A stretch of DNA of 64,000 nt from Escherichia coli 042 (GCF_000027125.1 NC_017626.1), one strand, 5' to 3'. Counted from the first letter of the stretch, positions 34,542 to 35,048 are shown. Notes: generated by a model from the sequence alone, not told the origin. Made by a program: numbers and translations.

Positions 34542-35048
34542 ATGAATTTAAGCGCAATGGTATACCCTGATACTTTCATAATTAATGGCGAATCATTTAA
34601 AGGTAAAAGAAACGCAAAAGAAAACAAGGTATTAATTCCATATACAAATGAACCGGAAGTAACTATTGGTCAACACATTATCCAGTGTGTCGGTAAAAAC
34701 GAGATAAATCTAAAAATTATAGATATGAAGTTGCTTCCCAATGGAACCCTCAGACAGGGAACCAACCATCCAAATATGTTGACGCTCTATATTGAAAATA
34801 TCACGGGAAATGAACATATGACGCCACCTAAAAGTAATACATTTAACATTGGTTCAATTAGTGGTAATCAAGTGCAGATAGGTGAGCATAACCATATGCT
34901 GGTAAACATCAGCATCACTGAACTGGTTGAAAAAGTCTCTAAATCGGGGGATGTACAAGCCAAATCAGTATTAAAGCAGTTACTGGAAAACAGTACCGTT
35001 GCCAGCATTGTTGGGGCTGGCGCAAGTGCCTTAATAGGCTTACTGTAA
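34542..35048 (+). CDS. hypothetical cargo protein with C-terminal hydrophobic Gly/Ala-rich tail
   Basis: 168-aa ORF, markedly AT-rich, divergent from the capsid operon, followed by a terminator; no family recognised. Confidence 0.55.
   Translation: MNLSAMVYPDTFIINGESFKGKRNAKENKVLIPYTNEPEVTIGQHIIQCVGKNEINLKIIDMKLLPNGTLRQGTNHPNMLTLYIENITGNEHMTPPKSNTFNIGSISGNQVQIGEHNHMLVNISITELVEKVSKSGDVQAKSVLKQLLENSTVASIVGAGASALIGLL

What the first reader, a model, noticed from the sequence alone, without database searches (positions are those of the whole stretch)
34542..35048. AT-rich orphan cargo gene in the satellite accessory slot
This 168-aa ORF is the only long plus-strand gene in the capsid/replication half of the element. 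It is much more AT-rich than its neighbours, has a Shine-Dalgarno-spaced ATG and a hairpin terminator, and encodes a soluble-looking domain ending in a hydrophobic Gly/Ala-rich tail (TVASIVGAGASALIGLL). Its position between the replication and capsid modules is where PICI-type satellites are reported to carry anti-phage or host-interaction cargo. I cannot assign it to any family.
Basis: inference. Interest (0 to 1): 0.7.

Follow-up and report, generated by a model that had tools for sequence, protein, structure and literature searches.

The report
Satellite cargo gene with RHIM-like motif
This is a real, conserved but unnamed gene carried in a swap-in slot of a phage satellite; its protein joins a small barrel domain to a motif resembling the animal cell-death RHIM motif and a membrane-seeking tail, so it is probably an undescribed phage-conflict weapon.

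Summary
The ORF at 34542-35048 (+) is real, AT-rich (GC about 0.37 against about 0.52 nearby), has a Shine-Dalgarno site, and is under purifying selection. It is not an orphan. It belongs to PHROG 5789 (function unknown), with 234 cluster representatives across Gammaproteobacteria.

It is a roughly 580-bp cassette inserted at a precise point between the capsid operon and the replication module of a capsid-forming PICI. Related islands have this slot empty, hold other cargo, or hold a two-gene version.

The protein has three parts:
- a six-stranded beta-barrel (aa 9-86);
- a disordered Asn/Gln/Gly-rich motif with a VQIGxxN core, whose best Pfam and PDB matches are the RHIM amyloid motif, though not at significant scores;
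- two amphipathic helices and a marginally hydrophobic glycine-zipper tail.

The motif-plus-tail module recurs behind at least 18 unrelated N-terminal domains. In the two-gene version, a paralogue that keeps the motif but lacks the tail sits immediately upstream.

There is no match to PADLOC or NCBIfam, and none to Tai.

Best reading (about 0.4): a phage-conflict effector in which motif-driven self-assembly drives membrane attack. The function is inferred, not demonstrated.

The parts
34542..35048 (+). Cargo ORF, 168 aa plus stop. Identical or near-identical to RefSeq WP_167778144, annotated 'hypothetical protein'. Member of PHROG 5789.
34566..34799 (+). N-terminal six-stranded beta-barrel domain (aa 9-86), proposed here as the specificity domain.
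34833..34913 (+). RHIM-like Asn/Gln/Gly-rich beta motif (aa 98-124, SNTFNIGSISGNQVQIGEHNHMLVNIS). The core VQIGEHN is aa 111-117 (nt 34872-34892).
   Evidence: Q112, G114 and N117 are invariant and stay invariant or nearly so across N-domain-swapped relatives. Pfam RHIM i-E is 0.052 for the full protein and 0.017 for the C-module alone; 8 of 42 members score E<=0.1, best 3.4e-4. The top PDB hits are RIPK1 RHIM fibril peptides at E 0.37. AF2 pLDDT is below 50.
34914..34988 (+). Two amphipathic helices (aa 125-149) carrying invariant D137, A140, K141 and L144.
34995..35045 (+). C-terminal hydrophobic glycine-zipper helix (aa 152-168, TVASIVGAGASALIGLL). It is marginal as a transmembrane segment.
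   Evidence: Mean Kyte-Doolittle hydropathy is 1.91. The summed Hessa-scale dG is about +1.4 kcal/mol. A small-xxx-small-xxx-small pattern occurs in 35 of 42 family tails.
34532..34535 (+). Shine-Dalgarno AGGA, 6 nt upstream of the ATG.
34480..34510 (+). Possible promoter: backbone TTTACA (34480-34485), 19-nt spacer, cargo-borne TATTAT (34505-34510). The prediction is weak.
   Evidence: Read. It is not detected by the consensus scan.
34489..35067 (.). Cargo cassette: the sequence present here but absent from islands with an empty slot.
   Evidence: Alignment with the empty slots L014 and L016.
35055..35074 (.). Bidirectional terminator hairpin of the island backbone.
33086..34255 (-). cf-PICI major capsid gene, the first gene of the packaging operon and the left flank of the slot.
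35084..35332 (-). Backbone 82-aa hypothetical gene, the right flank of the slot. It is also present in islands with an empty slot.
27725..42955 (.). The capsid-forming PICI (about 15.2 kb) that carries the cargo. It is inserted inside the terL gene of a lambdoid prophage. Boundaries are approximate.

Best explanation
The ORF is a mobile accessory ('moron') gene of a capsid-forming PICI. It encodes a three-part conflict effector.

Proposed mechanism:
1. The N-terminal beta-barrel is the specificity domain that recognises a trigger, most plausibly a component of an incoming or competing phage.
2. The conserved RHIM-like stretch (NIGSISGNQVQIGEHNHMLVNISI) is an intrinsically disordered self-assembly switch. 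It oligomerises once triggered, possibly as a cross-beta (amyloid-like) stack.
3. Assembly bundles the amphipathic helices and the marginally hydrophobic glycine-zipper tails, so that they insert into and damage the inner membrane. This aborts the infection or excludes the competitor.
4. In the two-gene version found in related islands, an upstream paralogue keeps the motif but has lost the tail. It would act as a separate sensor or regulator that seeds the tail-bearing protein through the shared motif.

Shown: it is a real, selected gene; it has cassette and hotspot status; its architecture is modular; the motif is conserved and resembles RHIM; the tail-less, motif-sharing partner exists.

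Inferred: the anti-phage role, the trigger, amyloid formation and membrane damage.
For: - **Real, selected gene.**
- **Precise cassette.** It lies between conserved backbone sequence and the terminator, and the same site is empty in L014 and L016.
- **Hotspot behaviour.** Among 76 related cf-PICIs, 28 carry this family, 17 carry other plausible cargo (including PDC-M18 A+B), and the remaining 31 show no convincing cargo.
- **Other locations.** The family also sits in classic moron or defence positions: the end of a P2-like prophage next to a HEPN-like gene; between Rz and terS of an E. coli phage; and between Q and the lysis genes of Cronobacter phage ENT39118.
- **Modularity.** The motif+helices+tail module is fused to at least 18 unrelated N-terminal domains. 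One such variant (P0137) occupies the same slot of another cf-PICI. This is the pattern expected of swappable sensors on a constant effector.
- **Motif.** Q, G and N of VQ(I/V)GxxN are invariant or nearly so across the superfamily. RHIM is the top Pfam family (8 of 42 at E<=0.1, best 3.4e-4). RIPK1 RHIM fibril cores are the top two PDB hits. AF2 leaves the motif disordered.
- **Tail.** It is hydrophobic but marginal, with a glycine zipper in 35 of 42 members. This fits conditional, oligomerisation-dependent insertion.
- **Two-gene version.** Six pairs were inferred; adjacency was checked directly for three of them (L015, L020, L022) and rests on matching contig lengths for the other three. Six more IMG/VR loci and 20 E. 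coli genomes also carry the arrangement. The upstream protein keeps N176, Q186, G188 and N191 while its tail degenerates.
- **Precedent.** Amyloid-motif signalling between adjacent gene products causes abortive infection in E. coli (Bab/Agp, 10.1101/2024.11.07.622273).
Against: - No experiment exists for any member.
- PADLOC, NCBIfam and Pfam give no defence assignment.
- RHIM similarity is below significance for this protein (i-E 0.017-0.052; PDB E 0.37), and a 7-residue core can arise by convergence.
- No amyloid predictor or multimer model could be run.
- The window holds no second motif-bearing gene, so the canonical two-partner signalling scheme does not apply here.
- The tail is only 17 residues with a positive summed dG, so it may not be membrane-embedded at all.
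- 42 of 46 IMG/VR occurrences of this N-domain type lie in the cf-PICI slot. That could equally point to a satellite-specific function rather than general defence.
- Motif co-variation within pairs is weak: diagonal enrichment appears in only 2 of 6 pairs.
Confidence: 0.4

Rival explanations
1. Virion-assembly interference, working like Tai or Tab. The barrel domain shares the fold of phage stopper/head-closure proteins. It would bind a neck, portal or tail-end component of a competing phage (or of the helper's heads) and block head-tail joining. The motif and tail would serve only for oligomerisation or membrane sequestration. In a satellite that steals only tails, this could also free tails for its own capsids.
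Against: There is no sequence-profile relation to head-closure proteins (hhalign probability 0.2-0.4%) or to TaiEcA (0.1%). Foldseek against viral models finds nothing convincing. PilZ and flavin-reductase barrels score nearly as well, so the fold is generic. The most conserved part is the motif+tail module, which is shared with helical and other unrelated N-domains. Islands with and without their own head-closure gene both carry the family.
Confidence: 0.15
2. Superinfection exclusion. A tail-anchored inner-membrane protein, made from the integrated island, blocks DNA entry of incoming phages without killing the cell.
For: It has a hydrophobic C-terminal helix. Its opposite-strand, moron-like placement is typical of genes expressed from the integrated state. 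It occurs in temperate phages.
Against: A C-terminal anchor puts the whole protein in the cytoplasm, away from the injection machinery. The conserved RHIM-like motif and the tail-less partner have no obvious role in this model. There is no similarity to known exclusion proteins in PADLOC or PHROGs.
Confidence: 0.12
3. A satellite life-cycle factor rather than a defence, for example control of lysis timing, of helper exploitation, or of particle release.
For: It is the commonest occupant of the slot (28 of 76), and nearly all IMG/VR copies are in cf-PICIs. The membrane-active tail is compatible with a holin-like role.
Against: The slot is empty in many otherwise intact islands. The gene is on the opposite strand to both island operons and is separated from them by a terminator. 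Homologues occur outside satellites, in a P2-like prophage, in lambdoid phages, and in chromosomal islands of Xanthomonas and Shewanella.
Confidence: 0.1
4. A host-fitness or other cargo function unrelated to phages, such as a membrane stress or colonisation factor. This would include a ligand-gated PilZ-like sensor.
Against: The PilZ signatures RxxxR and (D/N)xSxxG are not conserved: only R23 and D61 are, and S63 and the spacing are not. No cyclase or signalling neighbour is conserved. N-domain swapping on a constant module, together with hotspot placement, is typical of conflict systems.
Confidence: 0.1
5. A non-expressed chance ORF or pseudogene.
For: No strong promoter is predicted.
Against: The length is conserved at 168-171 aa from E. 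coli to Pseudomonas, Shewanella and Xanthomonas. Synonymous sites are saturated while protein identity stays at 50-60%. Omega is about 0.3 among close alleles.
Confidence: 0.01

Closest known systems
Bab/Agp amyloid-signalling abortive-infection system of E. coli (BASS11 motif; Ibarlosa et al., bioRxiv 10.1101/2024.11.07.622273)
   Same: Both are small E. coli proteins carried on mobile elements that combine a short Asn/Gly-rich, predicted cross-beta motif with a membrane-targeting hydrophobic helix. In the two-gene relatives of this family, adjacent genes share the motif, as Bab and Agp do.
   Different: The order of parts is reversed: here it is domain, then motif, then helices, then a C-terminal hydrophobic helix, whereas Bab has an N-terminal hydrophobic helix, a Bell-like bundle and a C-terminal motif. 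There is no Bell-like domain and no TPR-GreA/B-PIN partner. The motif resembles RHIM rather than BASS11. The copy in the window is solitary. No function or fibril formation has been shown.
RHIM (Pfam PF12721) of RIPK1/RIPK3/ZBP1/TRIF, and the related bacterial BASS3 and fungal PP motifs
   Same: The core (I/V)-Q-(I/V)-G-x-x-N is shared. Here it is VQIGEHNHM, against IQIGAYNYM in human RIPK1 (sequence recalled from memory) and IQIGNHNYM in the mouse RIPK1 fibril peptides that are the best PDB hits. RHIM is the best Pfam family. The region is predicted disordered.
   Different: Scores are sub-threshold. The host proteins are unrelated. BASS3 was described in multicellular Actinobacteria and Cyanobacteria, at the C-terminus of Bell proteins paired with NLRs (10.1101/2020.01.06.895854). 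That architecture is absent here. Homology versus convergence cannot be decided.
Tai (tail assembly inhibition) systems of PICIs, prophages and P4-like satellites (He et al. 2024, PMC11364771)
   Same: Both are single small genes not recognised by PADLOC or DefenseFinder. Both sit in an accessory region in the middle of PICIs and upstream of the packaging module in lambdoid phages.
   Different: The sequence families are unrelated: TaiEcA is a 204-aa helical protein, and hhalign probability is 0.1%. The slot differs too (after pri, against between the backbone 82-aa gene and the capsid gene here). Tai has no RHIM-like motif or hydrophobic tail.
Phage head-closure/stopper proteins (Pfam PF05521, SPP1 gp16-like barrels)
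   Different: There is no sequence similarity. The gene is not in a head-tail operon. It carries an extra motif and tail. The barrel fold is shared with PilZ and flavin-reductase domains.

Membership tests
Accessory cargo of a PICI variable hotspot | Lies between conserved backbone genes, with presence/absence polymorphism at a fixed junction. | tested here: met
   Empty slots in L014 and L016 align to both flanks. The cassette is window 34489-35067.
Accessory cargo of a PICI variable hotspot | The same site holds different, unrelated genes in related islands. | tested here: met
   In 76 islands: 28 hold this family, and others hold a 157-aa protein, a 257-aa membrane protein, PDC-M18 A+B, a 414-aa protein, or an IS5 transposase.
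RHIM (PF12721) | Core tetrad (I/V)-Q-(I/V/L)-G followed by a conserved Asn. | tested here: met
   VQIG at aa 111-114 and N117. Q112, G114 and N117 are invariant in 35 homologues and invariant or nearly so in 42 domain-swapped relatives.
RHIM (PF12721) | Significant match to the family profile. | tested here: inconclusive
   i-E is 0.052 for the full protein and 0.017 for the C-module. 8 of 42 relatives score E<=0.1, best 3.4e-4. The top PDB hits are RIPK1 RHIM peptides at E 0.37.
RHIM (PF12721) | Forms amyloid fibrils and mediates homotypic interaction. | not testable with these tools
   This needs peptide fibrillation assays, ssNMR or EM, or at least ArchCandy or multimer modelling.
Bacterial amyloid signalling pairs (Bell/NLR BASS; Bab/Agp) | Two adjacent genes whose products share the motif. 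| tested here: not met
   There is no second motif-bearing ORF in the 64-kb window or within +/-8 kb of the solitary homologues. The feature is met only in related two-gene loci (L015, L020, L022 and six IMG/VR loci).
Bacterial amyloid signalling pairs (Bell/NLR BASS; Bab/Agp) | Effector has a Bell/HeLo-type helical domain with an N-terminal hydrophobic helix and a C-terminal motif; partner is an NLR or TPR-GreA/B-PIN protein with an N-terminal motif. | tested here: not met
   The N-domain is a beta-barrel, the motif is internal, and the hydrophobic helix is C-terminal. No NLR or TGP gene is nearby. The partner's helical domain gives only generic helical-bundle matches.
Tai systems | Sequence homology to TaiEcA (phi80 orf63). 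| tested here: not met
   hhalign probability is 0.13%.
Phage head-closure/stopper proteins (PF05521) | Profile-level sequence similarity and position in a head-tail joining operon. | tested here: not met
   There is no Pfam hit at E<=10. hhalign probability is 0.15-0.41% against two head-closure proteins. The gene is on the opposite strand, outside the packaging operon. Only the fold is similar.
PilZ c-di-GMP receptors | RxxxR and (D/N)xSxxG signatures. | tested here: not met
   Only R23 and D61 are conserved. The second Arg, the Ser and the Gly spacing are not. There is no Pfam PilZ hit.
Catalogued anti-phage defence systems (PADLOC-DB v2) | Match to any model. | tested here: not met
   There are 0 families at E<=1 for this protein, and 0 at E<=0.1 for the 13 relatives tested, including the partner.
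Tail-anchored / single-pass membrane protein | A hydrophobic segment long and hydrophobic enough to span the membrane. | tested here: inconclusive
   17 residues, mean Kyte-Doolittle 1.91, but a position-independent Hessa sum of +1.4 kcal/mol. The family median is +1.9. No dedicated TM predictor was available.

The most novel reading that the evidence does not exclude
This is the founding example of an undescribed superfamily of conflict effectors in Gammaproteobacteria, borne by phages and satellites. In it, a RHIM-like cross-beta motif acts as the switch that couples interchangeable sensor domains to a latent membrane-disrupting glycine-zipper helix. The system exists either within one polypeptide, as here, or split between two adjacent motif-sharing genes. 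That would bring RHIM-type amyloid signalling, so far tied to animal necroptosis, fungal cell death and multicellular bacteria, into ordinary enterobacterial phage warfare. It would also show both one-component and two-component forms of the same system.
Probability: 0.27. Interest if true: 0.8.

Novelty: new variant of a known kind. Interest (0 to 1): 0.62.

Why it matters
If the reading holds, a compact gene of about 500 bp would give a tractable E. coli model for how a RHIM-type motif converts recognition into membrane killing. Natural one-gene and two-gene forms, and a library of at least 18 alternative sensor domains, would be available for comparison.

It would also name the commonest cargo of the capsid-proximal hotspot of capsid-forming PICIs. 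These satellites spread across genera, so the finding would help explain what they offer their hosts.

Even if the amyloid idea is wrong, the family is a widespread, strongly conserved and entirely unannotated component of satellites and temperate phages, and is worth a phage-challenge screen.

Tried and rejected
- **Family libraries.** PADLOC, NCBIfam and Pfam on the protein give nothing except a weak RHIM hit. PHROGs gives only families of unknown function.
- **Tai.** Its description (PICI mid-island slot, 'before terS' in phages, Pectobacterium PICIs) looked like a match. I fetched phi80 orf63 and it is unrelated. Tab is restricted to JBD26-like phages.
- **Head-closure homology.** Rejected at sequence level. 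Foldseek against viral models was uninformative.
- **PilZ reading.** Rejected on its signatures.
- **Word-indexed search with the C-module profile.** It returned mostly fragments.
- **att repeats of the island.** Not found with 12-nt seeds.
- **Rfam on the island.** No hits.
- **Within-pair motif co-variation.** Only a weak diagonal signal in 2 of 6 pairs, so it is not used as evidence.
- **Literature.** Searches for this family or for RHIM-like motifs in prophages or satellites found no prior description.

Full report

Yes. Window 34542-35048 (+) is an ATG-started ORF of 168 codons. It ends in TVASIVGAGASALIGLL. AGGA lies 6 nt upstream of the ATG. GC falls to 0.366-0.42 over the ORF, against 0.50-0.59 in the neighbouring genes. 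A 7-bp GC-rich hairpin follows at 35055-35074.

A 99.9% identical E. coli chromosome (NZ_OZ501612) annotates the ORF as hypothetical protein WP_167778144. In that annotation it is the only plus-strand gene over 65 aa in the element.

The ORF is a real, selected gene:
- A word-based search found 98 homologues of 168-171 aa in Enterobacterales, Pseudomonas, Shewanella and Xanthomonas.
- An exhaustive profile search found 234 cluster representatives at E<=1e-3.
- Against distant homologues, synonymous sites are saturated (pS 0.74-0.90) while pN is 0.24-0.36.
- Against two close E. coli alleles, omega is about 0.32.

**2. What carries it?**

The surrounding roughly 15.2 kb (window about 27725-42955) is a capsid-forming PICI. 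It carries integrase, HTH and BRO-N genes, an Icd-like gene, DUF4222, a DUF927 primase, SSB and PerC. These are followed by major capsid, prohead protease, portal, connector, HNH, TerS and TerL. There are no tail or lysis genes.

The gene set matches the description of cf-PICIs (10.1101/2022.09.08.507074). The island is itself inserted in the terL gene of a lambdoid prophage.

**3. The slot.**

Related islands with the same capsid and the same downstream 82-aa gene have nothing between them (L014, L016). Aligning these with the window shows identity up to ...AATTTACAAAA (ending at window 34488) and again from the right arm of the terminator hairpin (35068). The cargo is therefore a cassette of about 580 bp at 34489-35067: a 53-nt leader, the ORF, and part of the hairpin.

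The hairpin belongs to the backbone. It reads as a better terminator on the minus strand. No plus-strand promoter passes the consensus scan. The only candidate uses the backbone TTTACA (34480-34485), a 19-nt spacer and a cargo-borne TATTAT.

I took the 80 IMG/VR loci with the most similar capsid gene; 76 had enough upstream sequence to score:

| Slot content | Loci |
|---|---|
| This family (2 with an extra upstream partner) | 28 |
| No convincing cargo | about 31 |
| 157-aa protein | 8 |
| 257-aa membrane protein | 4 |
| 132-aa protein | 2 |
| 414-aa protein | 1 |
| IS5 transposase | 1 |
| Two-gene set matching PADLOC candidate system PDC-M18 A+B | 1 |

Searching IMG/VR with the family itself gave 46 loci. 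In 42 of them the gene lies directly divergent from a cf-PICI capsid gene.

**4. Anatomy of the protein.**

AlphaFold2 with 35 homologues gives three regions:
- a confident six-stranded beta-barrel (aa 9-86, pLDDT 82-90);
- a low-confidence stretch (aa 93-117, pLDDT below 50);
- three helices (125-135, 138-149, 151-167).

- there is no Pfam hit;
- hhalign probability is below 0.5% against two head-closure proteins;
- Foldseek on viral models finds nothing convincing;
- the PilZ signatures are not conserved.

*The low-confidence stretch.* This is the best-conserved part of the family: TFNIGSVSGxQVQIGExNHxxVNISI, with Q112, G114 and N117 invariant.

*The tail.* It is 17 residues with mean Kyte-Doolittle hydropathy 1.91, but the position-independent Hessa sum is +1.4 kcal/mol. 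It has a small-xxx-small-xxx-small pattern, as do 35 of 42 family tails. It is hydrophobic but marginal. That is what one expects of a helix that enters the membrane only when several copies are brought together. This last step is inference.

**5. A modular superfamily.**

Many hits of the exhaustive search match only profile positions of about 90-168 and have unrelated N-terminal parts of 70-180 residues. Clustering those N-terminal parts gives at least 18 groups.

In an alignment of 42 C-modules drawn from these groups, G, N, A, K and G are invariant, and Q and two Leu are nearly so. The consensus is NIGxxxxxxVQxGNxNxQxxNI...ELVExIAxSxDxEAKSxLKxLLENxTVASxxGAGASxLLxLL.

One variant with a different N-domain (P0137) sits in exactly the same slot of another cf-PICI.

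Other members lie:
- at the end of a P2-like Pseudomonas prophage, just downstream of a HEPN-like gene;
- between Rz and the HNH/terS genes of E. coli phage vB_EcoM-689R6;
- between Q and the lysis genes, on the opposite strand, in Cronobacter phage ENT39118;
- in small-gene islands of Xanthomonas and Shewanella chromosomes.

No neighbouring gene is conserved across these contexts. A constant module behind interchangeable domains, placed in moron or hotspot positions, is the usual signature of conflict systems with swappable specificity. That is established knowledge of defence-system architecture, applied here as inference.

**6. The motif resembles RHIM.**

The only Pfam family hit by the protein is RHIM (PF12721), over QVQIGEHNHML. 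The i-E is 0.052 for the full protein and 0.017 for the C-module alone. Scanning the 42 C-modules one by one, RHIM is the top family: 8 members at E<=0.1, best 3.4e-4.

A profile of the C-module searched against all PDB sequences returns, as its two best hits, the RIPK1 RHIM fibril peptides 9m6m and 8ib0. The alignment is nigsisgsnVQvGNeNsqti against [20 protein letters not shown], at E 0.37.

These scores are not significant, and a 7-residue core can be convergent. I therefore treat this as a resemblance, not as membership.

The RHIM-related bacterial motif BASS3 was described only in multicellular bacteria, at the C-terminus of Bell-domain proteins paired with NLRs (10.1101/2020.01.06.895854). 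That architecture is absent here.

**7. A two-gene form.**

In 20 E. coli genomes (for example NZ_CP135719) the same slot holds two plus-strand genes. The first encodes 254 aa. The second, starting 30 nt downstream, is a 169-aa family member that is 66% identical to the window protein.

The first protein has a helical N-domain (also found in P0155 and P0198), followed by NIFNIATVNSQYVQLGTNNNINIQEL, but it has no hydrophobic tail.

Its family (21 clusters) forms a gradient from members with a full tail, through members with charged residues in the tail, to members whose tail is replaced. The only full-tail member whose context I looked at (P0155, a 2.8-kb contig) has no second gene beside it. 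N176, Q186, G188 and N191 of the motif stay invariant throughout.

Adjacency to a tail-bearing 168-aa member was confirmed in two further divergent cf-PICIs with different replication modules and in six IMG/VR loci.

Two adjacent genes sharing a short Asn/Gly-rich motif, only one of them carrying a membrane-targeting element, is the arrangement that defines amyloid signalling pairs. It has been shown to cause abortive infection in E. coli for Bab/Agp (10.1101/2024.11.07.622273).

The window copy is solitary. No other ORF in the 64 kb carries the motif. Within-pair co-variation of the motif is weak, so I do not count it as evidence.

**8. Mechanism, and how sure.**

I commit to a phage-conflict effector in which three things happen:
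- the barrel recognises a trigger;
- the RHIM-like stretch self-assembles;
- the clustered tails attack the membrane.

The tail-less paralogue in two-gene loci would act as a separate sensor or seed. My confidence is about 0.4.

| Shown | Inferred |
|---|---|
| Real, selected gene | The trigger |
| Cassette in a hotspot | Amyloid-type assembly |
| Modular architecture | Membrane damage |
| Conserved RHIM-like motif | Any effect on phages |
| Tail-less, motif-sharing partner | |

Rivals:

| Rival | Confidence | Main argument against |
|---|---|---|
| Assembly interference through the stopper-like barrel | 0.15 | Generic fold; the conserved part is the C-module |
| Superinfection exclusion | 0.12 | |
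| A satellite life-cycle role | 0.10 | Empty slots in intact islands; non-satellite homologues |
| Phage-unrelated host function | 0.10 | |
| Chance ORF | 0.01 | |

The strong tie to the cf-PICI slot argues for the satellite life-cycle rival.

**9. Comparison with known systems, and novelty.**

The protein matches nothing in PADLOC or NCBIfam, and its only Pfam hit is the weak RHIM match. Its PHROGs (5789, and 16834 for a sister type) are of unknown function.

Tai looked similar by location but is unrelated. Tab is confined to JBD26-like phages. Full-text searches found no description of this family.

It works most like amyloid-controlled cell-death effectors (Bab, HET-S) but fails their membership tests: no Bell or HeLo domain, reversed order of parts, and no partner in the window. 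I class it as a new variant of a known kind, conditional on the proposed function.

Interest is 0.62. The architecture and the one-gene/two-gene series would surprise a specialist and are directly testable, but nothing functional is yet shown.

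Noticed in passing
window 26981-27724 (-) and 42955-43983 (-), flanking the island at about 27725-42955: The capsid-forming PICI is integrated inside the large-terminase gene of a lambdoid prophage, splitting it into a 3' and a 5' fragment. cf-PICIs are described as using attachment sites never occupied by prophages (10.1101/2022.09.08.507074), so a satellite sitting in, and disabling, a prophage packaging gene is unusual.
   Followed up: partly
window 41560-43983 (-): An uninterrupted 807-codon reading frame runs from the ATG of the split prophage terL straight into the island's integrase. 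The integrase proper probably starts at MALNKLSDKK. Whether a fusion protein is made, or the open frame is incidental, is unknown.
   Followed up: partly
window 28119-28157 and 36163-36204: The 9-mer ATAACCCGC occurs as a tandem pair just beyond the island's terL. It occurs again as an inverted tandem pair (GCGGGTTAT) between the SSB and primase genes. These are candidate regulator, origin or packaging sites.
   Followed up: no
NZ_CP135719.1 2884689-2885992 (L015:4916-6219); also L020:7001-8309 and L022:7001-8240: A two-gene form of the slot cargo. A protein of about 250 aa has a helical domain and the RHIM-like motif but no hydrophobic tail. It is followed 23-47 nt later by a 168-169-aa family member. 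The arrangement is present in 20 complete E. coli genomes.
   Followed up: yes
L147:2649-4203 (-) (IMG/VR UViG 2576861721_000002): In a related cf-PICI the same slot holds a two-gene set matching the PADLOC candidate defence system PDC-M18 (A: E 5e-71; B, a membrane protein: E 1e-22).
   Followed up: partly
plasmid records CP018459.1 (16,971 bp) and NZ_CP069874.1 (15,995 bp), Klebsiella pneumoniae: Two 'plasmids' of satellite size carry a homologue at 63-65% identity. They are probably circular cf-PICI forms deposited as plasmids.
   Followed up: no
L076:3733-4203 (-), L107:3495-4265 (-), L097:3009-4250 (-): These are other recurrent occupants of the slot with no match in PADLOC or NCBIfam: a 157-aa protein (8 islands), a 257-aa membrane protein (4 islands) and a 414-aa protein (1 island). 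They are further unexplored cargo of this hotspot.
   Followed up: partly
window 27500-28250: A low-GC stretch (0.38-0.40) at the other end of the packaging operon has no ORF over 60 aa. This is the second variable region of cf-PICIs and appears empty or degraded here.
   Followed up: no
protein P0137 (L011:8001-8537): The alternative N-domain of this slot variant weakly matches the NCBIfam model PRK11367, an uncharacterised 476-aa protein family (E 1.2e-5, far below the curated cut-off).
   Followed up: no
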